Origin: a virus
Reading direction: 5' to 3' (one strand)
Virus genome (UHGV): UHGV-0121358
DNA length: 54,213 nucleotides
Part shown: piece after piece, positions 6,197 through 42,820 of the stretch
Numbering within the stretch: the stretch's first letter is position 1
Layout: each line of letters begins with the position of its first letter
Notes under the pieces: model-generated
Database searches by the model: none
Told to the model about the DNA's origin: nothing
The model's input: the letters and a program-made list of their open reading frames with translations, nothing else
Translations under genes and position numbers: made by a program

Positions 6197-6727
6197 TTAA
6201 CTTACAACGTCTAGAGCGTCTCTGTTATTACTTGTGTCTATGCCTAACGACCCGACGTTTGAACCTATTTTCATTTCGCCCAACAGGATCGGCACTGGTC
6301 TACCCTGGCCTACCTTGTTTTCAATGCTGGTGTAGGTGTTATTAGATATGGTGTTATCTTGTGCGCTTTCTGCTGATGTTTTTATCTTCATGTTGCGAGA
6401 CATAAAGATCGAGAACGCAACGCTAACAACCGAAACACCGATCAAAATCCAGCCTACAACGCCAATTCCTGCAATACCGCCTTCCACCACTGGCGCAACA
6501 ATGACAGTAGTCCCGTCCGGGTATTTACTGTTAACCGCTGCTGGCGCGGTCTTTTCGTCATAATCTTTCCCGGCAATTCGTAAGCGCAACGGAGTGCTTA
6601 AAAACGCCTTTTTGAACTCATGATTCTGCGCAACCAGCAAGCCAAGTCCTTGCGCTGGCGTATCAACGTTTAAACACACCTTGCCGTAATATCTTCGAAG
6701 ATTGCCCGTAAATCTAAATTTGAGCAT
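6197..6727 (-). CDS. I: tail assembly protein I
   Basis: Track ORF; position between K and J; C-terminal ILLGEMKIGSNVGS resembles lambda gpI (VLYGEMRVGSRV). Confidence 0.75.
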   Translation of the reverse strand: MLKFRFTGNLRRYYGKVCLNVDTPAQGLGLLVAQNHEFKKAFLSTPLRLRIAGKDYDEKTAPAAVNSKYPDGTTVIVAPVVEGGIAGIGVVGWILIGVSVVSVAFSIFMSRNMKIKTSAESAQDNTISNNTYTSIENKVGQGRPVPILLGEMKIGSNVGSLGIDTSNNRDALDVVS

Positions 6728-7407
6728 TTGTCAGATCTCCATATTGAGTTGGTCTGTCGAACATACGCGGGCCGCATTTGTTCGCGGCGGCTTAACAGTC
6801 CGGCATTGTCATGATGCAAAACAGTGTTATCGCCCAGGTAAATCATCGCGTGACATGGGTCAGCGCCTTTAAACGGCTGGCGGATAATCACATCACCAGG
6901 CTGAATACTTTTCGCGTCAACCATGAAAAACCCGTTCAATGGCAGGTTTTTTATGTACAGGTTTTCCCCACGCAGCCACCATCCGTCGTGGCGTTCAAAA
7001 TCCGGTAGATCCACGCCGCAAAGGTGATAGGCGTCACGAAAAAGCGAGTAGCAGTCTGTTTTCCCGTGCTCAAATTTACGGCCTAACAGGTGCGCCACCG
7101 GGCGGAATTTTCTAACCCTGCCACCGGAACACAAATACCACGGCAGGCCTGAAATAACCTGCTGTTGTCGATCCCGTGCTGACAATACCAACGAATTGTC
7201 AGTATGGGAGTGAAAAACGGCAGTTATAACGCCTAATTCGTCAGCTTTGATATAATCGTCAGGCGAGATTTTAAAGCTGTTGTGCGGCGTTTCAGACACG
7301 TTGGCGCACGGGTAAAAATAATCGTTATCTATCACCAGCCCGCACACTTCCTCGCACTGGTGGGCTGCCGCATAGCGAATCATTTTATCTTCAAGTGCCA
7401 TAATCAA
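6670..7407 (-). CDS. K: tail assembly protein K (JAB/MPN plus NlpC/P60-like)
   Basis: Track ORF; JAMM-like HSHTDNS...S..D motif and Cys/His NlpC/P60-like residues (DCYSL, HHDN); overlaps L stop by 4 nt and I start as in lambda. Confidence 0.8.
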   Translation of the reverse strand: MIMALEDKMIRYAAAHQCEEVCGLVIDNDYFYPCANVSETPHNSFKISPDDYIKADELGVITAVFHSHTDNSLVLSARDRQQQVISGLPWYLCSGGRVRKFRPVAHLLGRKFEHGKTDCYSLFRDAYHLCGVDLPDFERHDGWWLRGENLYIKNLPLNGFFMVDAKSIQPGDVIIRQPFKGADPCHAMIYLGDNTVLHHDNAGLLSRREQMRPAYVRQTNSIWRSDKCSNLDLRAIFEDITARCV

Positions 7408-8108
7408 CCCACCTTACTGGACCCAGGGAAGCACGAAATCGGTAACGGATTCGGGCGTGGAAAACGCAAACGGCAACCGCTAAGGCGGTGGCTGCATTTG
7501 TCCAGCTTTGGATCACTGGTAGATTCGTCTTTATCGGTAGCTACAGGTCCACCACTATATCCGCAACCGTCGCCGCGATATTGCCATTGGCAAACGTCAG
7601 CGAGGATTGTGCGCCCTGGGATAACCGCCTTGTCAGCATCAATTGGCGTTGACAGTTCATATTGCACCTGGTCGGCTGTTTCTTCGCTCATCGCCTCAAC
7701 GACGTAAAAAGACACCGCCTCGATAGATGGATCTGCATCCGGGTTGCCGTTTGGGAAGTTGATGGCGTCCAGGTATTTTACTTCCACCTGGCGGCGTGTA
7801 ACCTTCATTCCTCGCAGGTCGTTGAAATCGTTGTTCATCCCGGTGATTAGCCCGCCAATGTTGGCTACTACCATCTGCGGGCGTGAGTAAACGCCTTCGT
7901 TTTTCATTTCGAAGCCAGTGGCCTCGATTGGGTAGCTGTTGTAAGTCACTCCCTTCCAGATAACCGGGCCGTAATAGCCATTCGCTCCGGAATGGAAGCG
8001 GATAACCTCGCCACCCATGGGCGTGAGGTCTAATTCAAACAAGTCAATGACCGCGCCGACTCCGGCATCGACGGAATCAATAATCATCTCTCTCGGAATA
8101 TTGCGCAT
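7404..8108 (-). CDS. L: minor tail protein L
   Basis: Track ORF 7404..8141 begins at a GTG; internal ATG (MRNIPRE...) has GGTGAG SD. C-terminal CGYSGGP...DKCSHRLSGCRLRF matches lambda gpL (CGYSGPA...DKCSKCLSGCKFR). Confidence 0.85.
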   Translation of the reverse strand: MRNIPREMIIDSVDAGVGAVIDLFELDLTPMGGEVIRFHSGANGYYGPVIWKGVTYNSYPIEATGFEMKNEGVYSRPQMVVANIGGLITGMNNDFNDLRGMKVTRRQVEVKYLDAINFPNGNPDADPSIEAVSFYVVEAMSEETADQVQYELSTPIDADKAVIPGRTILADVCQWQYRGDGCGYSGGPVATDKDESTSDPKLDKCSHRLSGCRLRFPRPNPLPISCFPGSSKVG

Positions 8109-8161
8109 TTTCTCACCTTGTAATTTTGTGATCTGCGTCACGCTAAATCATACCAAAACGG

Positions 8162-8190
8162 TTGATCGCGATTTTTACAATATGTATATT
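8162..8190 (+). promoter_or_regulatory. sigma70-like promoter for plus-strand moron cassette
   Basis: -35 TTGATC (8162-8167), 17-nt spacer, -10 TATATT (8185-8190), directly after the L gene start on the opposite strand. Confidence 0.35.
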
Positions 8191-8206
8191 GTACTCAAAA
8201 GGAAGC

Positions 8207-8392
8207 ATGGTTAACAAAATGGCGCTGAGGTGTGAAATGGATGATAAGGTGTGGAGGTTGACGGTGTTCCTTGCTGATGGCAGGAAAATGACTGTGGCCC
8301 TGTATAAAGATGAAGGCGAGGCACTTACCGACGCGCTCTTACTCGCTGAAGATGAACGCGTTTTGGGGTACAGGATCGAACCTGTCAAATGA
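8207..8392 (+). CDS. hypothetical small protein (moron gene 1); alternative start 8237
   Basis: Track ORF 8162..8392; in-frame ATG at 8207 after AAGGAAG, or ATG at 8237 after GAGGTG. Confidence 0.4.
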   Translation: MVNKMALRCEMDDKVWRLTVFLADGRKMTVALYKDEGEALTDALLLAEDERVLGYRIEPVK

Positions 8393-8404
8393 GAGGTTAA
8401 CGAA

Positions 8405-8755
8405 ATGCAAAAATATAGTTTAGAAATATGGACTGATAAGTGTGAATGGGAGCGCATGGGCCTGTTTGACACATACGCCGCAGCGCGTGATGAAGGTAGT
8501 GAGTTACTTCGCTGTTGGTCTGGCGCTCGTGATTTTGATATTACTCCGGTCCAAGTACCGGACCTGGTGGAAGAGATGAACCCGAAAGATATTAACTTTA
8601 ACGTCAATGTTGAATTTGCAGACTCTATGGATCAGGCTTGCCCTGGTGAAATACACGCAAAAGGTTTTCCGGCTGACGATCCAGAAGCAAAACGAGAATA
8701 CGAAAAAGCTGCGAAAGACTTCTGCATAGATAACCTGGCCGCATTCGATAAATAA
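8405..8755 (+). CDS. hypothetical protein (moron gene 2)
   Basis: Track ORF; GAGAGG SD 8 nt upstream of ATG; no recognised motif. Confidence 0.5.
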   Translation: MQKYSLEIWTDKCEWERMGLFDTYAAARDEGSELLRCWSGARDFDITPVQVPDLVEEMNPKDINFNVNVEFADSMDQACPGEIHAKGFPADDPEAKREYEKAAKDFCIDNLAAFDK

Positions 8756-8764
8756 GGCGGCAAC

Positions 8765-9013
8765 ATGGGGCGGCGCAATCACGGCGATTATGTGTACACG
8801 CTGAAACAGGCCGCCCGCCTCATCGGTTATCATGAGCACGAATTTATTGATTTGCTGATTGAGCGCGGGATACTGTACCAGGTCTGTTTAACGCTGTACC
8901 CGAAAGCGAAATACCTACAGGAAAAGTTATTCATCATCATGACGGATGAAAACCAGGTTAATCATTCATTCGTCACTGATAAGGGATTGACATATTTGAA
9001 GGGGGCGTTATGA
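8765..9013 (+). CDS. hypothetical protein with possible AlpA/excisionase-type HTH (moron gene 3)
   Basis: Track ORF; segment YTLKQAARLIGYHEHEFIDLLIERGIL resembles HTH_17/MerR-type DNA-binding helices (pattern recognition only). Confidence 0.5.
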   Translation: MGRRNHGDYVYTLKQAARLIGYHEHEFIDLLIERGILYQVCLTLYPKAKYLQEKLFIIMTDENQVNHSFVTDKGLTYLKGAL

Positions 9014-9014
9014 G

Positions 9015-9089
9015 ATGTGCGAACATTACGTTCTGGAAATGATCATTATCATTATTGGATTGTTATGCATTCTGCTATCGACACTATAA
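9015..9089 (+). CDS. possible 24-aa hydrophobic mini-protein (MCEHYVLEMIIIIIGLLCILLSTL)
   Basis: Own translation; ATG 1 nt after the stop of the preceding gene, ends 3 nt before the terminator hairpin. Very short, so weak. Confidence 0.25.
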   Translation: MCEHYVLEMIIIIIGLLCILLSTL

Positions 9090-9117
9090 ACCCCGCCGTG
9101 GCGGGGTATTTTTTAAT
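9090..9117 (+). terminator. rho-independent terminator closing plus-strand moron cassette
   Basis: GC hairpin CCCGC-CGTG-GCGGG followed by TATTTTTT. Confidence 0.7.
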
Positions 9118-9295
9118 CGTAGGATAGAAATGCTACTTCTTTGCCATCCCAAGTCGTACAGCCGATATATCCATCACCCATATCATGAAGATACCACGTC
9201 TCGCCGTTATCAGCTTGTACAGTTAGATCATTAATTTCATAGTCGGCAAACAATGTAAAAGCGCCAGTGCGCTCCACTACACAAAAATAAGGCAT
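9113..9295 (-). CDS. hypothetical small protein
   Basis: Track ORF 9113..9325; internal ATG at 9295 preceded by AGGGGAGGGG SD; lies between M and the moron terminator. Confidence 0.4.
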   Translation of the reverse strand: MPYFCVVERTGAFTLFADYEINDLTVQADNGETWYLHDMGDGYIGCTTWDGKEVAFLSYD

Positions 9296-9305
9296 ATCCC
9301 CTCCC

Positions 9306-9659
9306 CTAATTAATAACTTGCTCAAATGTTGCGTTTAGCGTGTATAGCGGTCCGTCTTTAGTCATGCTCCAGCTACGGCAAACAAAAAGCCTTTGCACGT
9401 TATCCATTGACGGCGACCAGTAAAAAGCCTCGACCGCGCCGCGCGCCCTCAAGAATGCTTCCGCCTGGATTGCTACGTTTTCACCATCACCACATCCGGC
9501 GCTACTGCCCTTAAACACCAGGGTGTAGCTATCAAGTAACGGGTTGATACCTTTAACCTGTCTTTGCTCATAACCATCGCCCAGCTTAACAACTGATACG
9601 TCCGGCTCCCTGGTCACGCTGTAGCTTCGTTGCGGCGTCCATCTGAACACTTCCGGCAT
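9306..9659 (-). CDS. M: minor tail protein M
   Basis: Track ORF 9306..9677 begins at GTG; ATG at 9659. FRWTPQ..., GDGYEQRQ and C-terminal FEQVIN match lambda gpM (FRWKV..., GDGYSQRA, FEQVVN). Confidence 0.8.
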   Translation of the reverse strand: MPEVFRWTPQRSYSVTREPDVSVVKLGDGYEQRQVKGINPLLDSYTLVFKGSSAGCGDGENVAIQAEAFLRARGAVEAFYWSPSMDNVQRLFVCRSWSMTKDGPLYTLNATFEQVIN

Positions 9660-9757
9660 AAAACCCCCATAAGTCACATTTTGTATATATCTTTACGCGC
9701 CTCTACGCGAAAAATGAGATCTTAATCACAATGATTATAGCTAGTTTACAAAATGGC

Positions 9758-9786
9758 TTCACATAGTGCGCAACAAGATGTATATA
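9758..9786 (+). promoter_or_regulatory. sigma70-like promoter for second plus-strand moron cassette
   Basis: -35 TTCACA, 17-nt spacer, -10 TATATA; immediately preceded by the recurrent motif TACAAAATGG (9747-9756). Confidence 0.35.
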
Positions 9787-9827
9787 GAAAGCAAGAAGAA
9801 AAGCAGTACCAACGAAGGAGGCCAAAA

Positions 9828-9983
9828 ATGAAACGCTATGTAGTGGTAATGCTGAACAACGCATTCGAACAAGTGGAAATAGCAATCGTTAAGGGCTTCG
9901 ACGACGCATTCAAATACGGTCAATTCATGATGAATGCAAAAGAAGATGAATACCGTGATTTCTTCCTGAAGGCACTCAACTAA
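9828..9983 (+). CDS. hypothetical small protein
   Basis: Track ORF 9753..9983; in-frame ATG at 9828 with strong AAGGAGG SD 7 nt upstream. Confidence 0.5.
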   Translation: MKRYVVVMLNNAFEQVEIAIVKGFDDAFKYGQFMMNAKEDEYRDFFLKALN

Positions 9984-10000
9984 GGATGATGGGGTGAGTT

Positions 10001-10255
10001 ATGAAACTGGTAGCGATTGATAAAAACCTGAAAGTACAGAAAAACGCACAAGACAGGATTATCAAGAAAGGGAAGGAACTGCTTAAAGCATTTTTGAAGA
10101 AAGAGGCGCGCCCCAAAAAGTTACGTGATGGTTATGGCTTTAAATTCGACATCAACCCTGACTGGAGGCTGTTTAGCGAAGACCTAAAAGTCTGGTTAAT
10201 TATCGATCATCTGGAATATAACAGGCACTGTGGAGTCAAAGGGGTGCATAAGTGA
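10001..10255 (+). CDS. hypothetical protein
   Basis: Track ORF; GGGGTGAG SD; basic, no recognised motif. Confidence 0.5.
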   Translation: MKLVAIDKNLKVQKNAQDRIIKKGKELLKAFLKKEARPKKLRDGYGFKFDINPDWRLFSEDLKVWLIIDHLEYNRHCGVKGVHK

Positions 10256-10364
10256 GGTGGGACATGGAGGACGATAAATTCACCTGGCGGGAGATCTGGA
10301 ATATTTGGTTGGTGATGTTCGGCAGTGGTTACGTCGCACGTAACGGAAGATTATAGGAGGAAAA

Positions 10365-10550
10365 ATGATTATTGACGAAACAGAGTTATGTTACGGAGTT
10401 AGGTTAGATCTTGATGAGGATGGTCGGCTATGGATAACCGAACTCATGGGGACTGACACCCTCGTAATTGACAAATCGCAGGCGACGCAACTTATCGCCG
10501 GGCTTCAAAAATTTATAGATGGCACATTTGAGAACGATCAGGAGGATTAA
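10365..10550 (+). CDS. hypothetical small acidic protein
   Basis: Track ORF; strong TAGGAGGA SD. Confidence 0.5.
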   Translation: MIIDETELCYGVRLDLDEDGRLWITELMGTDTLVIDKSQATQLIAGLQKFIDGTFENDQED

Positions 10551-10552
10551 CA

Positions 10553-10840
10553 ATGGATTTAACCGTCATTGGTCACGCACTGGCTGCGGCGGCTATGCAG
10601 GTTGTTATCGGCCTGCTTACTGGTGATTATCTCACTGGCGGCCTGATTGGATGTACATTCTTTTTTGCACGCGAACACACGCAGGCTGAATATCGTTACA
10701 TAGCGGAATTTTGCGGTGGAAAACGGGAAAGAATGCCGTGGTATGGCGGATTATTACCTAAAGCATGGAATATGGCTAGCGTTTGCGACTTCGCCGCACC
10801 TGTATTCCTGTGCTGTTTGATTTATATTCTCACCATGTAA
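10553..10840 (+). CDS. hypothetical membrane protein
   Basis: Track ORF; CAGGAGGA SD; hydrophobic N- and C-terminal segments. Confidence 0.5.
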   Translation: MDLTVIGHALAAAAMQVVIGLLTGDYLTGGLIGCTFFFAREHTQAEYRYIAEFCGGKRERMPWYGGLLPKAWNMASVCDFAAPVFLCCLIYILTM

Positions 10841-10844
10841 AATA

Positions 10845-10865
10845 AAGGCCGCTTATAGCGGCCTT
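10845..10865. terminator. bidirectional terminator hairpin between moron cassette and tape-measure gene
   Basis: Stem AAGGCCGC / GCGGCCTT with loop TTATA; T-rich flank on the minus strand after the tape-measure stop (10870) and moderately T-rich on plus. Confidence 0.55.
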
Positions 10866-10869
10866 AGTG

Positions 10870-13215
10870 TTATTTGCGGCGCGGTTGCAACATCCCGCCA
10901 GGTCTTTGCGATTCCCTTGTTATCATCTTCATTGCTACACGTTCCATTGTTGATTCAAGTCTGCGGCTGTCTTCTTCGCTAAATCCGTTTGTGGTTTGAA
11001 TACTGATACTGACAGGCATACTAAAACCGCCACCGCCGCCAATATCACGACCAGGAATAACCCTGCCGTTCTCGCCTGGGATCATATATTGGTTGCCGTT
11101 AGACGTCTGGAATAGCTCCGGCCTGTTGTGTTCCCCTACGCGGTACATATTGCCACCAATGACGCTACCACCATTAAAGCGACCGCCGCCGAAAATTGAC
11201 GTAGCCAGCGACATGATCGCAGTGAGCGCAGCCGAACCAGCCGCCGCCCAGCTACCGCCAGTTGATGCAGCCGTTGCCGCCGCCGCCGGGGCCGCCGCCG
11301 CCGCGATGCTTCCCTGAGCGGCAACCGCGCTTGCCGTTGTACTTGCTTGAGTTGCCTTGCTTTGTGTTTCCATCATGATCTGATCTGCTATCCAGTCGGC
11401 TGCTATATCAGAAAGTCTGTTGCCAATATTCCCTAGTATATTGCTCCCTAAGTTAGCAAAAACATCGCTCAATGATTGAGTACCGTTAAGCAGGCCGACA
11501 AGCGCATTGCTCATGCCACCTTTAAGGCCATTAACGCAATCACCGATCAGGCCGTTTGTCTGGCTTTGCGCCTGCCATTGCTCCCATTTCAGATCGCGGA
11601 TCTGTTGCTCATAGGCTAACAATGCCTGTTTCTGTTGCGCTTCGGTAGCGCCCAGGTCGATAAGCATTTGCTTACGGACGGCCCATTCATTTTGTACCTG
11701 CTGAATAGGGTCAACCTCGCCTTTAAGCTGATTCATCGGGCTTACTATTTGCGCCCATTTATCACGCAATTCATCTACCGGAATTTGGGCTAATTCTTCC
11801 TTCAGTTCCTTACCTATCCCTTTTTGCGCGGCGCGGTACTCAAGGAGGGTGATTTTACCCTGGGCGAATGCAGCATCAATGGCCTTGCCGTTCTCTAACG
11901 CTTTGCGCATGGCGGCGGCGTCTTTATTGTACTGGTCAGAAACGCTTATACCCTTGTCACCAAGCGTATCCTCTTTGCTTTTCTTGCTGCCACTCTTCTT
12001 ACCCTTTTTAGGCTTATCAACTGGCTTGTCGAATCCGGTGATCTTGCCGTCGTTGGCTTCTGCCTGTTTCTGCATAAACTCATCATAAGCGGCAGTCGCG
12101 TTTTTAATGTCGTTTGCAAAAGTCATGACTTTACCGACTGTAGGGCCGAATTTCTTCTCATTGTTGCTATTTAGTTCTTCCTTGCGCTTATCTACAACCT
12201 CCTTCATCCATTTGTAGGCGTCCATAAGTGCCTTGATTGGCATCACCATTGCGATGATCTTCTCTGCCACCTCGCCAGCCTTCACAGCCACATCATCAAA
12301 CATGTCGATGAATTCGCCACCAGCCGTTTTGAGTGTATCGAAGCAGGTTTTAGCGAATTTAGCGCCCTCACCTAACCCCTTAACGCCTTTTGTGATTAAG
12401 TCGATAGCTGAGACTACGCCATCTGATACGCCGAAAAGATCATCAAGCTGTTCAACAAGACCCATGATTTCGACTTTAAGCTCATTGATAGCCATGCCGG
12501 ATGTGCGCGGCAACTGAGCAAACTGCTCGTTTGTTTCCTGCGTAGCCGCCTGGATTGCGTTAACCATCCTTTCTGCCGTGATCTTGCCGTCCAGCATTTC
12601 GGCGCGGAACTGGCCCATAGATAACCCCATCTGACGGGCCATTGTCTGTACGATGGTCGGGGTGTTTTCAAGTAGGCTGTTAAATTCTTCAGCACGCAGC
12701 ACGCCGCCGTCTATAGACTGGCGGAACTGGCGCATAGAGTTAGACATCTGTTCCGCTGATGCGCCGCCTAACGCCCCCATTTTCTGAATAGTGCCAACCA
12801 GGTTAAGTAATTGCCCTTCCGTAGCTGACGTGTTCTTCAGTGAGATGGCAAGACCTTGCCATAGCTCGCCAGTATCCTTCAGGCTTTGCCCCGTTTCCCT
12901 GGATATTGCTTTCAGGCCGTCGAAAACCCGTCCGGCGGACTCCGCATCGCCCGTAAGCATTTTGATTTTTACGCGAAGCATTTTTGCTTGCTCCGCCATA
13001 TCCATAAATTGGCGCACAGCCTCGGCAGCAATTAGCAAATGGATAACCCTGGTCAGTGCTTTGATGGATGTTTTCAGGGTGTTTACCTGGCGGTCAGCCT
13101 GTTTTGCGCCGCGCTCTATACGGTCAAAGGCCTGGTCTGCCTGTCGTTGTGCAACGAGAAGTTGACCAGTTTTTGCATCAACTTCGTAATAAATTGTACC
13201 TACACTGGTAGCCAT
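10870..13215 (-). CDS. tail tape measure protein
   Basis: Track ORF, 781 aa, largely alpha-helical with Ala/Gly-rich stretches; located upstream of M-L-K-I-J. Confidence 0.85.
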   Translation of the reverse strand: MATSVGTIYYEVDAKTGQLLVAQRQADQAFDRIERGAKQADRQVNTLKTSIKALTRVIHLLIAAEAVRQFMDMAEQAKMLRVKIKMLTGDAESAGRVFDGLKAISRETGQSLKDTGELWQGLAISLKNTSATEGQLLNLVGTIQKMGALGGASAEQMSNSMRQFRQSIDGGVLRAEEFNSLLENTPTIVQTMARQMGLSMGQFRAEMLDGKITAERMVNAIQAATQETNEQFAQLPRTSGMAINELKVEIMGLVEQLDDLFGVSDGVVSAIDLITKGVKGLGEGAKFAKTCFDTLKTAGGEFIDMFDDVAVKAGEVAEKIIAMVMPIKALMDAYKWMKEVVDKRKEELNSNNEKKFGPTVGKVMTFANDIKNATAAYDEFMQKQAEANDGKITGFDKPVDKPKKGKKSGSKKSKEDTLGDKGISVSDQYNKDAAAMRKALENGKAIDAAFAQGKITLLEYRAAQKGIGKELKEELAQIPVDELRDKWAQIVSPMNQLKGEVDPIQQVQNEWAVRKQMLIDLGATEAQQKQALLAYEQQIRDLKWEQWQAQSQTNGLIGDCVNGLKGGMSNALVGLLNGTQSLSDVFANLGSNILGNIGNRLSDIAADWIADQIMMETQSKATQASTTASAVAAQGSIAAAAAPAAAATAASTGGSWAAAGSAALTAIMSLATSIFGGGRFNGGSVIGGNMYRVGEHNRPELFQTSNGNQYMIPGENGRVIPGRDIGGGGGFSMPVSISIQTTNGFSEEDSRRLESTMERVAMKMITRESQRPGGMLQPRRK

Positions 13216-13257
13216 GATTTAACCTCATGCAAAAATGTGATCTGTGTATCTATTTTA

Positions 13258-13297
13258 TACAAAATGGCTTTACTTCAACGACTCCATTTTGTATAAG
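13258..13297 (+). promoter_or_regulatory. promoter-like region with inverted copies of recurrent motif (TACAAAATGG ... CCATTTTGTA)
   Basis: Perfect 10-bp inverted repeat (13258-13267 / 13284-13293) bracketing -35 TTTACT (13269-13274); -10 TATAAG (13292-13297) after a 17-nt spacer; upstream of lipoprotein gene. Confidence 0.45.
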
Positions 13298-13342
13298 GAA
13301 GCCAAAGGGAAAGGTCAGTAAATCAAGTTAGCGTGGTGGGTT

Positions 13343-14002
13343 ATGAAACGGTTAGCAAAAGTGGCAATGATTGCGGCGGTATTGGGTCTGGTTGGTTGCA
13401 ATGAGGATAATGAAAAAGCGCCTATAGTGACCAATCAAGAACAACAAGCATTAGCAGAGAAAAATGCTAAATGGCTTGCAGAACAACAAGCAAAACAAGC
13501 CGCATACGATGCACAGTTAGAAAAAGAAAATGCTGGTAAACAGTGGCTTGTAGTTGAAAGAAAAGATGATATGCAGGACGCAAAAAACGTATTCCTTTTT
13601 GTGAAAGCAGAACAATTCAGCGGAAGTCTTGATGCTTTCCCGACACTGAAGGCACAGGATAAGAATAAACCGGTATTAACAATCGCTTGCCAGGGTAATA
13701 AAACAAAAATGTTCGTAGCATGGTCACACCATGTAACTGACGCCGGGGACACTACTTATATTAACTACCGGATCGGCGTTCACAAAGCTGTAGCTACTGA
13801 GTGGGGGCGGTCAACTAATTATAAAGCTCTTGGATTATGGGATGGCAAAAAAGCCATCCCAATGATTAAAAAAATGGTTAACGAAAAACAATTCATCATT
13901 GAAGTAGTGCCGGAAGCTGGCGACATTGAGAAAGCAGTGTTTAACATTGATGGTCTTTATAACCACATCGACAAAGTGAAAAACGCTTGCAACTGGAATT
14001 AA
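13343..14002 (+). CDS. lipoprotein, function unknown
   Basis: Track ORF; signal peptide with lipobox LVGC (MKRLAKVAMIAAVLGLVGC); opposite strand to flanking tail genes. Confidence 0.7.
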   Translation: MKRLAKVAMIAAVLGLVGCNEDNEKAPIVTNQEQQALAEKNAKWLAEQQAKQAAYDAQLEKENAGKQWLVVERKDDMQDAKNVFLFVKAEQFSGSLDAFPTLKAQDKNKPVLTIACQGNKTKMFVAWSHHVTDAGDTTYINYRIGVHKAVATEWGRSTNYKALGLWDGKKAIPMIKKMVNEKQFIIEVVPEAGDIEKAVFNIDGLYNHIDKVKNACNWN

Positions 14003-14012
14003 GGGGTAAATC

Positions 14013-14387
14013 ATGAAAAACATAATCAAAGCGGCTCTCATTGGTGTTATGGCTTTAGCTCTTACAGGGTGCGCAAGATCAACTGATTTCGTTAAGTTAG
14101 CTGATAAAAAATTGCAAGTTGGAATGACTTGTGAGCAAGTGAATAAAATAATGGGGGAACCACAAAGAATCGAGCATGACGGTAATTATAGTTATCACGT
14201 ATGGTATTCAGTAACCAGCACGATAGGATTTACTTACATGGATGTTGAAGAATTATCCCCTTCAAGGGTTATCGCAAAGTTTGATAACTGCATCCTAAAA
14301 GAATGGAAAGATCGCAGTAAGGCAAAGTCTGTATACAATACAATCACACACAGTTCACCAGGTACAGCAATTAAAGATTTCAATTAG
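14013..14387 (+). CDS. lipoprotein with BamE/SmpA-OmlA-like segment
   Basis: Track ORF; lipobox LTGC; GMTCEQVNKIMGEP resembles the BamE-type motif (pattern recognition only). Confidence 0.6.
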   Translation: MKNIIKAALIGVMALALTGCARSTDFVKLADKKLQVGMTCEQVNKIMGEPQRIEHDGNYSYHVWYSVTSTIGFTYMDVEELSPSRVIAKFDNCILKEWKDRSKAKSVYNTITHSSPGTAIKDFN

Positions 14388-14401
14388 CAAAACGCCCTGA
14401 T

Positions 14402-15088
14402 CTACCGGGCTTTTTCTTGCTCACGATTTTTCATTCTTTCTAGTGCCTTTTTAGCGGCCTCCATTTGCTCGTCATAAGCACGTTTATTTATGTGAATGTT
14501 TGGCTTGCTTCTCTCGTTTCTTTCGTCTGGCGGCGTTTTAGCGCGTACAGCGGCCCTATATCCGGTCATTGTCATATTCCATGCTTCCGATTCTGACAAG
14601 CCCAGGTGAGCAACGGCAGAATAAACGAATTCCAGCACGTTAAAAGTAGGCTTATATTCCCCTTCCCGGATCTCTCCGGCGTCTTCTTCCGGCCCGTCAC
14701 CGATTAAGCCGTGGTACATGCAATGCTGCGCCAGCGTGATAACGTCACTGGTAGGCATCAGTCCTGGTCTTAGCCGTAACTTGCCGGAAGGAGTAAACCT
14801 ACATTCGCCTAATAGCGTGCCTATTTCGTCGTCTGAGCAACATTTCAGGATGTGCATGGACGTTTGCACCATTTCACCATAACACCGCGCCATAATGCGA
14901 TTGCGAAGGTCTGGATCCGCTGGCAATCGTGATGGATATTTGCCACCGTGTATGGTTGCGAAGTATTCGACCAGTTCGCTGTCACTGCCGATTTTAGCCA
15001 TTGCAGCGAAGCAGGGATTAAACACGTACCGCCTGCCGTCTACCACCGCCGCAAATTGTCCCGTTCGAACATGGATCATAGCTGTCAC
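14402..15088 (-). CDS. putative tail assembly chaperone (between tail tube and tape measure)
   Basis: Track ORF; assignment by position only. Confidence 0.4.
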   Translation of the reverse strand: MTAMIHVRTGQFAAVVDGRRYVFNPCFAAMAKIGSDSELVEYFATIHGGKYPSRLPADPDLRNRIMARCYGEMVQTSMHILKCCSDDEIGTLLGECRFTPSGKLRLRPGLMPTSDVITLAQHCMYHGLIGDGPEEDAGEIREGEYKPTFNVLEFVYSAVAHLGLSESEAWNMTMTGYRAAVRAKTPPDERNERSKPNIHINKRAYDEQMEAAKKALERMKNREQEKAR

Positions 15089-34142: not shown

Positions 34143-34302
34143 AATGCTCTCTCCTTTTTCAGGTGATTTTTACGCATTTCAGCGTTACCGGATTTTTAAA
34201 GAGCATTTTGTTTGTTTGAAGTATACAAAACGGATACATGCGAACAAACAATAAAGCGCCATTATGTGATCCGCATCACACAATGACGCCATTTTGTAAA
34301 CA

Positions 34303-41652: not shown

Positions 41653-41906
41653 GCTTAACATCTTTCAACTAATCCCGCAATCATCGCCGTTCCCGGCGTG
41701 ACCTTGCTCACTCCAAGCAAGCTGACTCGTCGCCTTGCGTGCGGTTTCGTGGGGGATGTAACGCTTTAAACACCCCATGCGCCTTGTTATCAGTGCCGCT
41801 TTCGGTCCCCCATCGGGGAGTTACTCCACGGTTGACAAGGTGTTAAGCCTGATTTTTAAAGTGCCAGGAAGTTGCTTTTGTTACCTGCGCCCTTCCTTTG
41901 ACTCGC

Positions 41907-41935
41907 AATATACGCCCCGTAAAACATCGAGTCAA
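41907..41935 (-). promoter_or_regulatory. candidate early-left promoter pL
   Basis: Minus strand -35 TTGACT (41935-41930), 17-nt spacer, -10 TATATT (41912-41907); recurrent motif TACAAAATGG abuts the -35 on its upstream side. Confidence 0.45.
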
Positions 41936-42035
41936 TCCATTTTGTATACTTTTTTAAAATATTTTATATGCCATTGATATTTAAATAATAAATAACGTTT
42001 TCTGTTTACGTTTTGGTGTTTTCCAGGCAAAGAAA

Positions 42036-42736: not shown

Positions 42737-42820
42737 TGCAAGTCACAAAACGTGTATTTTAAGCCTTGATCTTAAAATTCCATTTTGTAAACTTGCAGAC
42801 AAGGTAAGGCCATACTTGCA
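42737..42820. promoter_or_regulatory. candidate operator region: three copies of heptamer ACTTGCA/TGCAAGT
   Basis: TGCAAGT at 42737-42743; ACTTGCA at 42791-42797 and 42814-42820, each followed by CAAGG; in the cI / right-operon intergenic region. Confidence 0.35.

What the first reader, a model, noticed from the sequence alone, without database searches (positions are those of the whole stretch)
9747..10866. Second opposite-strand moron cassette between tail genes M and tape measure
Four plus-strand genes (51, 84, 61 and 95 aa) with strong SD sequences, preceded by the recurrent motif and a promoter-like element and followed by a hairpin terminator, sit between M and the tape-measure gene. 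The last encodes a hydrophobic, probably membrane, protein. Two independent insertions flanking the same small tail gene suggest this junction is a hotspot for accessory cargo.
Basis: partly seen in the sequence, partly recalled or inferred. Interest (0 to 1): 0.55.

Follow-up and report, generated by a model that had tools for sequence, protein, structure and literature searches.

The report
Accessory gene cassette inside phage tail operon
A small operon of five tiny genes sits backwards between two tail genes of an E. coli prophage; it is an ordinary "moron"-type accessory cassette whose first two genes are fixed in this phage family and whose remaining genes are swapped freely between relatives.

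Summary
Window 9828-10840 (+) carries real, tightly packed genes with good ribosome-binding sites. A conserved promoter-like module precedes them and a stable hairpin (10845-10865) follows, abutting the stop codon of the tape-measure protein (TMP) gene. There are five genes, not four: a conserved 30-aa micro-ORF (10264-10356) was missed.

The window is a phage of the mEp021/mEpimmI family.
- **Conserved part:** p51 and p84 are near-universal in the family (p84 in 31/31 and p51 in 29/31 loci anchored on tail gene M). p84 matches Pfam ParE_like.
- **Variable part:** the segment between p84 and TMP is hypervariable, with 31 versions of 86-1476 nt built from a pool of mini-genes.
- **Hotspot:** outgroup phages with a related tail have TMP and M abutting, or carry unrelated cargo there. 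The junction is therefore a true hotspot.
- **p95:** it belongs to an unannotated family of small three-helix membrane proteins (437 clusters). Elsewhere these often lie just after tail-fibre or tailspike genes.
- **Toxin-antitoxin reading:** weak, because p84 survives intact without p51 in two relatives.
- **Promoter:** it is a paralogue of the early promoter upstream of the N-like gene. Whether the cassette is expressed in lysogens or early in infection is unresolved.

Verdict: a new member of a known kind, of modest interest.

The parts
9306..9659 (-). Minor tail protein M (flanking late gene); its true start is ATG 9659
   Evidence: Pfam PF05939 at E 9e-28. The start was set from the alignment of relatives and the in-frame ATG with a GGGGG ribosome-binding site.
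9676..9685 (-). Inverted copy of the recurrent box (TACAAAATGT on the - strand), in the conserved intergenic region
9715..9730 (+). CRP-like dyad TGAGA-N6-TCACA, centred about 70 nt upstream of the predicted transcription start
   Evidence: One of 5 sites in the window with at most 1 mismatch, against 1.8 expected. TCACA is invariant and TGAGA is kept in 10 of 12 relatives, while the 6-nt spacer varies.
9747..9756 (+). Recurrent box TACAAAATGG, abutting the -35 hexamer
9758..9786 (+). Promoter-like element: TTCACA, 17 nt, TATATA
   Evidence: It is colinear with the scan-called cassette-1 promoter at 8162-8190 and with the early promoter at 41946-41890 on the - strand. TGTATA and TTCAC are invariant in 12 relatives.
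9828..9983 (+). p51: 51 aa, acidic (pI 5.1), conserved across the family, function unknown
   Evidence: phrog_29810 at E 9e-40. Variable columns by codon position 9/14/42. 90-100% identical in all 7 cultured mEpimmI phages. No Pfam, PDB, NCBIfam or PADLOC hit.
10001..10255 (+). p84: 84 aa, basic (pI 9.9), member of Pfam ParE_like (PF24732)
   Evidence: PF24732 at 42.2 bits against a cut-off of 24.4, E 8e-11. phrog_1525. Variable columns by codon position 23/22/69. PGAP names it 'ParE family toxin-like protein' in E. coli genomes.
   Evidence: It has a GAGGTG ribosome-binding site. It is conserved and intact in 17 of 19 distinct versions, with a stop in one allele shared by L015/L028/L045/L046 and decay in L017. 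Variable columns by codon position 17/17/27.
10365..10550 (+). p61: 61 aa, very acidic (pI 4.05), flexible module with two subtypes in the family
   Evidence: phrog_13627 at E 5e-10. A second subtype, 42-51% identical, is the last gene before TMP in many relatives.
10553..10840 (+). p95: 95-aa three-helix membrane protein with a conserved polar motif (H8, R40-E41, Q44-A45, R58, W72, P83)
   Evidence: phrog_1443 at E 2e-36. The family has 437 clusters at 50% identity. AlphaFold2 model pLDDT 95.8. Invariant residues from alignment A4. Hydropathy.
10845..10865 (.). G+C-rich hairpin, a bidirectional terminator shared with the TMP gene
   Evidence: Every relative keeps a hairpin here, and the hairpin type travels with the last cargo gene.
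10870..13215 (-). Tape-measure protein gene (flanking late gene)
   Evidence: 781-aa ORF. Annotated as tape measure protein in relatives. Pfam TMP_3 in L055.

Best explanation
This is an autonomously transcribed accessory operon, a moron-type unit. It is embedded antisense in the late tail operon of an mEp021-like (mEpimmI) temperate coliphage, between M and the tape-measure gene.

**Shown.**
- There are five real genes.
- The regulatory region is conserved and has a sigma-70-like promoter module.
- The hairpin terminator is shared with TMP.
- The 5' pair (p51 and the ParE_like-family p84) is fixed in the family.
- The 3' slot is hypervariable. Mini-genes (p30, a 49-aa ORF, a 56-58-aa ORF, two p61 types, p95, an HNH endonuclease, zinc-ribbon proteins) are gained, lost and decayed there.

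**Inferred.**
- The unit is transcribed from its own promoter, independently of late transcription. Expression is most likely in the lysogen and possibly responsive to CRP.
- Antiterminated late transcription running through it in antisense would silence it during lytic growth. This is the logic of a 'noncontiguous operon'.
- The products serve host- or prophage-benefit functions rather than virion assembly.
- p95 probably acts at the inner membrane, on superinfection exclusion or envelope/receptor modification.
- p51 and p84 have a family-specific role that is still unknown.
For: **Coding status.** PHROG hits for all four ORFs and third-position bias in substitutions.

**One unit.**
- Gaps between genes are 2-17 nt.
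- The intergenic region holds the promoter module.
- The terminator is stable.
- G+C is 0.443 against 0.51 in both flanking tail genes.

**Extra DNA relative to a related tail module.** Outgroup loci have TMP|M gaps of -1 or 8 nt, and none holds any cassette gene.

**Hotspot.**
- There are 31 distinct versions of 86-1476 nt.
- An HNH endonuclease is inserted in L055 and mEp515.
- L019/L020 carry a microhomology deletion.
- Outgroup phages carry unrelated cargo at the same junction, some of it on the opposite strand.

**p95 moves between phage types.** It lies after an S74 tail fibre in a P2-like prophage, after the tailspike in a P22-like one, and after the side tail fibre in lambdoid phages.

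**Precedents.**
- HK97 gp15 lies next to the tape-measure gene and encodes an inner-membrane exclusion protein (PMC3594210).
- phi80 taiEcA is an opposite-strand gene interrupting the Q-dependent late operon. It is expressed in the lysogen and reduced when Q drives late transcription (PMC11364771).
Against: - There are no expression data.
- The promoter module is a paralogue of the early promoter upstream of the N-like gene (41946-41890, - strand). Its TACAAAATGG box is also the main element shared with the control region of the cI-like repressor gene. The cassette could therefore be repressed in lysogens.
- p51 and p84 are present in essentially all family members. That is not 'more DNA' within the family and hints at a conserved phage function.
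- The -10 hexamer (TATATA or TATACA) is weak by consensus, and the generic scan did not call it.
- No function could be assigned to any product. There are no PADLOC, NCBIfam or PDB hits, and no informative fold match.
Confidence: 0.55

Rival explanations
1. The cassette is an early, repressor-controlled accessory operon rather than a lysogen-expressed moron. Its promoter carries the same box as the early promoter and the repressor-gene control region. It would therefore be silent in the prophage and fire immediately after infection or induction. The products would act in host takeover, anti-defence or early exclusion.
For: - The four promoter modules align without gaps from the TAC box to the -10 region. 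One of them precedes a boxA-like sequence and the homologue of gp17, the N-like antiterminator (gp17 and nutR1 described in PMC11893012).
- The 16-mer AAGT(A/T)TACAAAATGGA is the strongest element shared between the two immunity-region control regions (D1).
- Two inverted copies sit in a 61-bp palindrome just upstream of the cI-like gene (I1).
- At cassette 3 the box forms an inverted pair spanning -35 to -10.
- Cassette 1 encodes a KilAC antirepressor-like protein.
Against: - The spacing between box copies is inconsistent (7, 16, 25 and 55 nt). This does not fit one dimeric operator.
- The box sits at -46 to -37 and is A-rich, so it fits a proximal UP-element subsite equally well.
- The cassettes have CRP-like sites that the early promoter lacks.
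- Cassette 3 encodes lipoproteins, and p95-type membrane proteins are typical prophage-expressed functions.
- The repressor's operator has not been defined experimentally in the literature held here.
Confidence: 0.3
2. p51 and p84 form a type II toxin-antitoxin pair of the ParDE kind. It would stabilise the prophage or abort superinfecting phages. p51 would be the labile acidic antitoxin and p84 the basic toxin.
For: - p84 passes the Pfam ParE_like gathering threshold, and PGAP names it accordingly.
- The gene order is small acidic protein (pI 5.1) followed 17 nt later by a basic protein (pI 9.9).
- The pair is co-inherited in 29 of 31 loci.
Against: - Two independent relatives (L009 and L010) have p51 cleanly deleted, yet p84 is full-length, 95-96% identical, and placed directly after the promoter with a ribosome-binding site.
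- p51 is 100% identical where p84 is only 62% identical, so the two do not co-vary.
- There is no PDB relative.
- p51 shows no antitoxin-type domain.
- There are no homologues on 72,556 plasmids.
- PADLOC gave only a non-significant hit at E 0.018.
Confidence: 0.15
3. The conserved pair p51-p84 serves virion or tail assembly, for example as a chaperone or regulator of tape-measure or tail-tip assembly. It would then be a core phage function that merely happens to be on the other strand.
For: - The pair is near-universal in the family, and its regulatory region is more conserved than many coding positions.
- It lies in the middle of the tail assembly genes.
Against: - It is on the opposite strand, with its own promoter and terminator.
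- It is absent from outgroup phages that use a homologous M/L/TMP module.
- p51 is dispensable in two relatives.
- The main text and the two supplementary files held as text for the mEp021 paper do not mention gp65-gp68. That is absence of evidence only.
Confidence: 0.07

Closest known systems
HK97 gene 15 moron (Juhala et al. 2000; Cumby et al. 2012, as reviewed in PMC3594210)
   Same: It is small accessory DNA inserted in the tail operon directly beside the tape-measure gene, with its own promoter and terminator and deviating G+C. Its product is a small inner-membrane protein, as p95 is predicted to be.
   Different: HK97 gp15 is a single gene and a YebO-family protein. Here there is a five-gene operon on the opposite strand. 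p95 has no YebO or any other Pfam hit. The 5' pair is fixed in the family. Exclusion activity has not been tested.
phi80 taiEcA/atiEcA 'noncontiguous operon' (PMC11364771)
   Same: Gene(s) transcribed against the direction of the antiterminated late operon that they interrupt. This offers a ready mechanism for mutually exclusive expression of cargo and late genes.
   Different: There is no sequence relation. Tai is about 26 kDa and sits upstream of the packaging module. No counter-defence partner is identified here, and antisense silencing is only inferred.
ParDE / RelBE-type type II toxin-antitoxin modules
   Same: p84 belongs to Pfam ParE_like. A small acidic gene lies upstream of a small basic gene in one operon.
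   Different: The upstream partner is dispensable in nature (L009, L010). No antitoxin domain is detectable, no similarity to canonical toxins was found, and there are no plasmid homologues.
Receptor-blocking or exclusion genes encoded next to receptor-binding protein genes (Cor of phi80/N15/HK022, as described in PMC3594210; T5 Llp, from my own knowledge)
   Same: In other phages, p95 homologues sit immediately after tail-fibre or tailspike genes. That is the classic position of such genes.
   Different: Cor and Llp are outer-membrane lipoproteins. p95 is a three-helix integral membrane protein with a conserved polar cluster. In this window it lies beside TMP, not beside the fibre gene.

Membership tests
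Moron (Hendrix/Juhala definition, as given in PMC3594210) | Extra DNA between genes that are adjacent in related phages | tested here: met
   Outgroup loci with M 66-72% identical have TMP|M gaps of -1 or 8 nt and carry none of the cassette genes. Within the mEpimmI family only the 3' half varies.
Moron (Hendrix/Juhala definition, as given in PMC3594210) | Own promoter | tested here: inconclusive
   A conserved TTCACA-17-TATATA module is paralogous to three other promoter-like modules. The generic scan did not call it, and there is no transcript evidence.
Moron (Hendrix/Juhala definition, as given in PMC3594210) | Own terminator | tested here: met
   Hairpin at 10845-10865, about -17 kcal/mol. 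A hairpin is retained in every relative.
Moron (Hendrix/Juhala definition, as given in PMC3594210) | Base composition different from the surrounding genes | tested here: met
   G+C is 0.443 for the cassette (p51 0.404, p84 0.412). The flanks are M 0.510, TMP 0.508 and L 0.523.
Moron (Hendrix/Juhala definition, as given in PMC3594210) | Expression from the repressed prophage | not testable with these tools
   This needs lysogen transcriptomics or reporter assays. The promoter box shared with the immunity region makes the outcome uncertain.
Pfam PF24732 ParE_like | Score above the curated gathering threshold | tested here: met
   42.2 bits against 24.4. Residues 19-75 cover model positions 2-67 of 67. 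Precomputed PF24732 hits on the homologues.
Type II toxin-antitoxin system (ParDE-like) | Toxin with a RelE/ParE fold | tested here: inconclusive
   The AlphaFold2 model is poor (pLDDT 50), showing a long helix and then four short strands. Foldseek found nothing. hhalign against canonical toxins matched no better than shuffled controls.
Type II toxin-antitoxin system (ParDE-like) | Obligate cognate antitoxin gene adjacent to and co-inherited with the toxin gene | tested here: not met
   L009 and L010 lack p51 but keep an intact p84. p51 is 100% identical where p84 is 62% identical.
Type II toxin-antitoxin system (ParDE-like) | Growth inhibition by the toxin, neutralised by the antitoxin | not testable with these tools
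   An expression experiment is needed.
HK97 gp15 / YebO-type superinfection exclusion protein | Sequence membership in the YebO family | tested here: not met
   p95 has no Pfam family at E up to 0.1, and 27 family members have none at E up to 1 apart from scattered weak, inconsistent hits.
HK97 gp15 / YebO-type superinfection exclusion protein | Small inner-membrane protein encoded beside the tape-measure gene | tested here: met
   Three-helix model with pLDDT 95.8 and hydrophobic segments at about 3-25 and 74-95. The gene ends 29 nt from the TMP stop codon.
HK97 gp15 / YebO-type superinfection exclusion protein | Blocks DNA entry of superinfecting phage | not testable with these tools
   Phage challenge assays are needed.
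Noncontiguous operon | Gene(s) in the opposite orientation inside an operon, so that the operon transcript is antisense to them | tested here: inconclusive
   The geometry is met: TMP and M are on the - strand and the cassette is on the + strand between them. Read-through of the bidirectional hairpin by antiterminated late transcription is assumed, not shown.

The most novel reading that the evidence does not exclude
The three opposite-strand cassettes threaded through the tail operon (8162-9013, 9828-10840, 13343-14387) would form one family-wide regulon. Each is driven by a copy of the early-promoter module with the TACAAAATGG box, which is also present in the repressor-gene control region. 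Each also has a CRP-like site at a class-I position (about -62, -70 and -60). The prophage repressor (or Cro) and host catabolite status would then jointly decide when accessory cargo is made. Convergent transcription with the antiterminated late operon would make cargo and tail expression mutually exclusive. The conserved p51-p84 pair would be the fixed 'driver' of a slot into which mini-genes are shuffled.
Probability: 0.2. Interest if true: 0.6.

Novelty: new member of a known kind. Interest (0 to 1): 0.35.

Why it matters
Morons in tail operons have been known since HK97, so the category is not new. Three details are useful.

1. The mEpimmI family is reported as common in the human gut. 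It carries three antisense cassettes in its tail module that the family's description paper does not discuss in the text searched. They share one promoter module with an early promoter.
2. The slot between p84 and TMP is a natural library of interchangeable mini-genes of 30-170 aa. That makes it a compact place to look for new exclusion, defence or anti-defence functions.
3. p95 defines an unannotated, widespread family of small membrane proteins. It has 437 clusters at 50% identity, spread from Enterobacteriaceae to Sphingomonas and Desulfovibrio. It has an invariant polar motif, and in phages it repeatedly sits next to receptor-binding protein genes. It is a good candidate for a conserved lysogenic-conversion or exclusion mechanism.

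Tried and rejected
**Structure and remote homology**
- The p84 AlphaFold2 model from a shallow alignment reached only pLDDT 50. Foldseek against PDB then gave only noise.
- phmmer and hmmsearch against PDB found nothing for p84, p51 or p95.
- The afdb50 library was unavailable.

**Family libraries**
- NCBIfam returned nothing.
- PADLOC returned one non-significant hit.
- Pfam returned nothing for p51, p30, p61 or p95.
- Rfam returned nothing above threshold for 8000-14500.

**Wider searches**
- p84 has no relatives on plasmids.
- p84 has no relatives in GTDB species-representative genomes.

**Literature**
- A search for PF24732 found no paper.
- The mEpimmI paper's main text and the two supplementary files held as text do not mention gp65-gp68.

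**Ideas rejected or left open**
- That the ORFs are spurious. Codon-position bias and PHROG hits rule this out.
- That p61 and p95 form an obligate pair. Each occurs without the other.
- That the 76-aa extended ORF from ATG 9753 is the real p51. The extension is out of frame in several relatives and lies upstream of the predicted transcription start.
- Defining the repressor's operator from repeats in the immunity region. The spacing of box copies is inconsistent, so this remains unresolved.
Full report
**What the window is.**
- The tail region is on the - strand: K 6670-7407, L 7404-8141, M 9306-9659, and the tape-measure protein (TMP) gene 10870-13215.
- DNA and protein matches place it in the mEp021/mEpimmI group of temperate coliphages. 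This is a Nus-dependent, non-lambdoid family described in PMC11893012.
- IMG/VR contig IMGVR_UViG_3300045988_111075 encodes all eleven query proteins of the compared region at 100% identity to the window.
- Parts of the cassette occur in 34 of 5,426 complete E. coli genomes at megablast sensitivity. Only 4 of these carry the whole of it.

**Checking the observation.**
They have AGGAGG-type ribosome-binding sites and gaps of only 2-17 nt between them.
- Each hits a PHROG family: p51 phrog_29810 at 9e-40, p84 phrog_1525 at 1e-19, p61 phrog_13627 at 5e-10, p95 phrog_1443 at 2e-36.
- Across relatives, variable alignment columns concentrate at third codon positions: 9/14/42, 23/22/69, 6/2/17 and 6/4/29. 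No sequence has an internal stop. These are genes under purifying selection.
- A fifth gene was missed: a 30-aa ORF at 10264-10356 with a GAGGTG ribosome-binding site. Its peptide is highly conserved and intact in 17 of 19 distinct versions. It carries a stop in one allele shared by four loci and has decayed in another.
- The hairpin at 10845-10865 is stable and scores as a terminator on both strands. It lies 4 nt after the p95 stop and 4 nt before the TMP stop.
- No Rfam family matches the region at its gathering score. The only hit below E = 1 is Pseudomonas sRNA P9 at 9039-9109 (22.9 bits against a gathering score of 43, E 0.15), which I take as chance.

**The 'recurrent motif' and the promoter.**
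- TACAAAATGG is enriched in the window, with 22 hits at up to 1 mismatch against 5.6 expected.
- A 38-nt composite that joins this box to TGTATA occurs 5 times against 0.01 expected. These copies lie in front of all three + strand cassettes of the tail module (8151, 9747, 13258) and at 41946-41909 on the - strand.
- The four modules align without gaps. Each has the box, then one base, then a -35 hexamer (TTGACT, TTGATC, TTCACA or TTTACT), then 17 nt, then a -10 hexamer (TATATT, TATATT, TATATA or TATAAG), then a shared CAAAGGAA-like start region.
- The generic scan called only the cassette-1 copy. Overall it found no more promoter-like sites than in shuffled sequence. The evidence for a promoter is therefore paralogy and conservation, not the scan.
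- In 12 relatives the M-p51 intergenic region is strikingly conserved. TTCAC, TGTATA and the box are invariant or nearly so.
- Upstream lies TGAGA-N6-TCACA (9715-9730). Its half-sites are conserved while the 6-nt spacer varies, which is the signature of a dimeric factor site such as CRP. It is centred near -70.
- Cassette 1 has TGTGA-N6-TCACG near -62, and cassette 3 has TGTGA-N6-TATCT near -60. Sites of this kind are only mildly enriched in the window, 5 against 1.8 expected, so I treat CRP control as a hypothesis.
- The fourth module (41946-41890, - strand) precedes a boxA-like sequence and the homologue of gp17, the N-like antiterminator (PMC11893012).
- The box is also the strongest element shared with the control region of the cI-like gene (42706-42059, - strand). 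There, two inverted copies lie in a 61-bp palindrome.
- The box could therefore be a proximal UP-like element, since it occupies -46 to -37 and is A-rich. It could equally be a site for the phage repressor or Cro. I could not decide. The answer determines whether the cassette is lysogen-expressed or early.

**Synteny.**
- Thirty-eight IMG/VR loci were fetched with p84, and annotated relatives were added. Together they show p51+p84 followed by a segment of 86-1476 nt before the TMP stop. There are 31 distinct versions of this segment.
- The segment is assembled from a small pool of modules:
  - p30;
  - a 49-aa ORF;
  - a 56-58-aa ORF;
  - two p61 subtypes;
  - p95, which is present in few relatives, frameshifted in L015, and reduced to a 24-aa remnant in L019/L020;
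  - an HNH endonuclease in L055 and mEp515;
  - zinc-ribbon proteins in mEp021.
- L019/L020 arose by a deletion across the microhomology TGGAATATGG.
- Every version keeps a hairpin just before the TMP stop, and the hairpin type travels with the last gene.
- To remove ascertainment bias I re-sampled with M as the anchor.
  - All 31 loci with M at least 82% identical have p84, and 29 of them have p51.
  - The 49 loci with M 66-72% identical have none of the cassette genes.
  - In that outgroup TMP and M either abut (-1 or 8 nt) or are separated by unrelated cargo. Examples are a 70-aa same-strand gene with its own terminator, a 79-aa or 132-aa opposite-strand gene, and a 33-aa hydrophobic peptide.
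- The junction is therefore a genuine hotspot. But the p51-p84 pair is ancestral to the family, not a recent insertion.
- Cassette G+C is 0.443, against 0.51 for M and TMP.

**The proteins: p84.**
- It passes the Pfam ParE_like threshold, 42.2 bits against 24.4.
- Beyond that label I could not confirm a ParE/RelE relationship:
  - the AlphaFold2 model is poor;
  - Foldseek, PDB searches and hhalign gave nothing;
  - there are no homologues on plasmids or in GTDB representative genomes.
- Two relatives have lost p51 cleanly while keeping an intact p84 directly behind the promoter.
- p51 stays 90-100% identical while p84 ranges from 60% to 90%.
- These points argue against p51 being an essential, co-evolving antitoxin.

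**The proteins: p51 and p61.** Neither has a detectable domain.

**The proteins: p95.**
- It is a confident three-helix membrane protein with pLDDT 95.8.
- Its invariant residues are H8, R40, E41, Q44, A45, R58, W72 and P83.
- Its family has 437 clusters at 50% identity, nearly all 90-120 aa. It has no Pfam family and no informative fold match.
- It spans Enterobacteriaceae, Aeromonas, Comamonas, Sphingomonas and Desulfovibrio.
- In other phages it sits in these positions:
  - after an S74-type tail fibre in a P2-like prophage;
  - after the tailspike at the end of a P22-like prophage;
  - after the side tail fibre plus a 92-aa ORF in lambdoid phages.
- Of ten further upstream ORFs examined, two have Peptidase_S74, one Tail_spike_N and one an Ig-like domain. 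One, in Sphingomonas, is the host ligA gene.
- p95 is thus a mobile accessory gene that favours the neighbourhood of receptor-binding protein genes. This fits an envelope-level function such as exclusion or receptor modification. That is an inference.

**How it most likely works.**
- The unit is transcribed from its own conserved promoter and stops at the hairpin shared with TMP.
- It lies antisense inside an antiterminated late operon. Late transcription should therefore collide with it or produce antisense RNA against it. This was proposed for phi80 taiEcA, which is expressed in the lysogen and reduced when Q drives the late operon (PMC11364771).
- The nearest positional precedent is HK97 gene 15. 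It is a moron beside the tape-measure gene that encodes an inner-membrane exclusion protein (PMC3594210).
- I put 0.55 on the moron-type accessory operon reading in the broad sense. Within that, lysogenic expression is only somewhat more likely than early, repressor-controlled expression.

**Verdict.** This is a new member of a known kind. Its interest is modest and rests mainly on three things: the shared promoter module, the mini-gene shuffling slot, and the unannotated p95 family.

Noticed in passing
window 10264-10356 (+): A conserved 30-aa micro-ORF (MEDDKFTWREIWNIWLVMFGSGYVARNGRL) lies between p84 and p61. It has its own ribosome-binding site. It is intact in most relatives, pseudogenised in a few, and not annotated in the RefSeq relatives examined.
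   Followed up: partly
window 8162-9013 (+) and 13343-14387 (+): Two further opposite-strand cassettes lie in the tail module, each behind a copy of the same promoter module. The first ends with a KilAC-domain antirepressor-like protein of 82 aa. The second encodes two proteins with lipoprotein-type signal sequences: 219 aa (annotated TagO in a relative) and 124 aa.
   Followed up: partly
window 41890-41946 (-) and 42737-42797: The promoter upstream of the N-like (gp17) gene is a paralogue of the cassette promoters. A 61-bp palindrome with two inverted TACAAAAYG boxes lies just upstream of the cI-like repressor gene. The 16-mer AAGT(A/T)TACAAAATGGA is shared by both control regions, which makes it a candidate operator.
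   Followed up: partly
window 34224-34298: A perfect CRP-type palindrome (TGTGATCCGCATCACA) is flanked by inverted TACAAAAYGG boxes. It lies between a methyltransferase-like gene and the next - strand gene, near where the literature places nutR2.
   Followed up: no
L019 2233-2313 and L020 (IMG/VR relatives): A deletion joins the p30 start to the last 24 codons of p95 across the 10-nt microhomology TGGAATATGG. It is a snapshot of cargo decay.
   Followed up: yes
L092, L103, L094, L110, L136 (outgroup phages, TMP|M junction): Unrelated small cargo genes occupy the same junction in phages whose M is about 70% identical. They include a 79-aa and a 132-aa opposite-strand gene, a 70-aa same-strand gene with a terminator, and a 33-aa hydrophobic peptide.
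   Followed up: partly
L056 3210-3794 and L057 3213-3788 (lambdoid phages 1H12 and PhiR40_1): In lambdoid phages the p95 homologue is preceded by a conserved 92-aa acidic ORF directly after the side tail fibre gene. In phage 1H12 the sitABCD manganese transporter genes follow it.
   Followed up: no
window 9113-9325 (-): A 70-aa ORF lies downstream of M on the late strand (phrog_3249). It is conserved in relatives as a hypothetical protein (mEp021_70). Cassettes 1 and 2 therefore flank two late genes, not one.
   Followed up: no
window 1-25000 (relatives): Relatives annotate an 'anti-CBASS protein Acb1 family protein' and a 'head spike fiber domain' protein among the structural genes. This is another accessory function embedded in the late region.
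   Followed up: no
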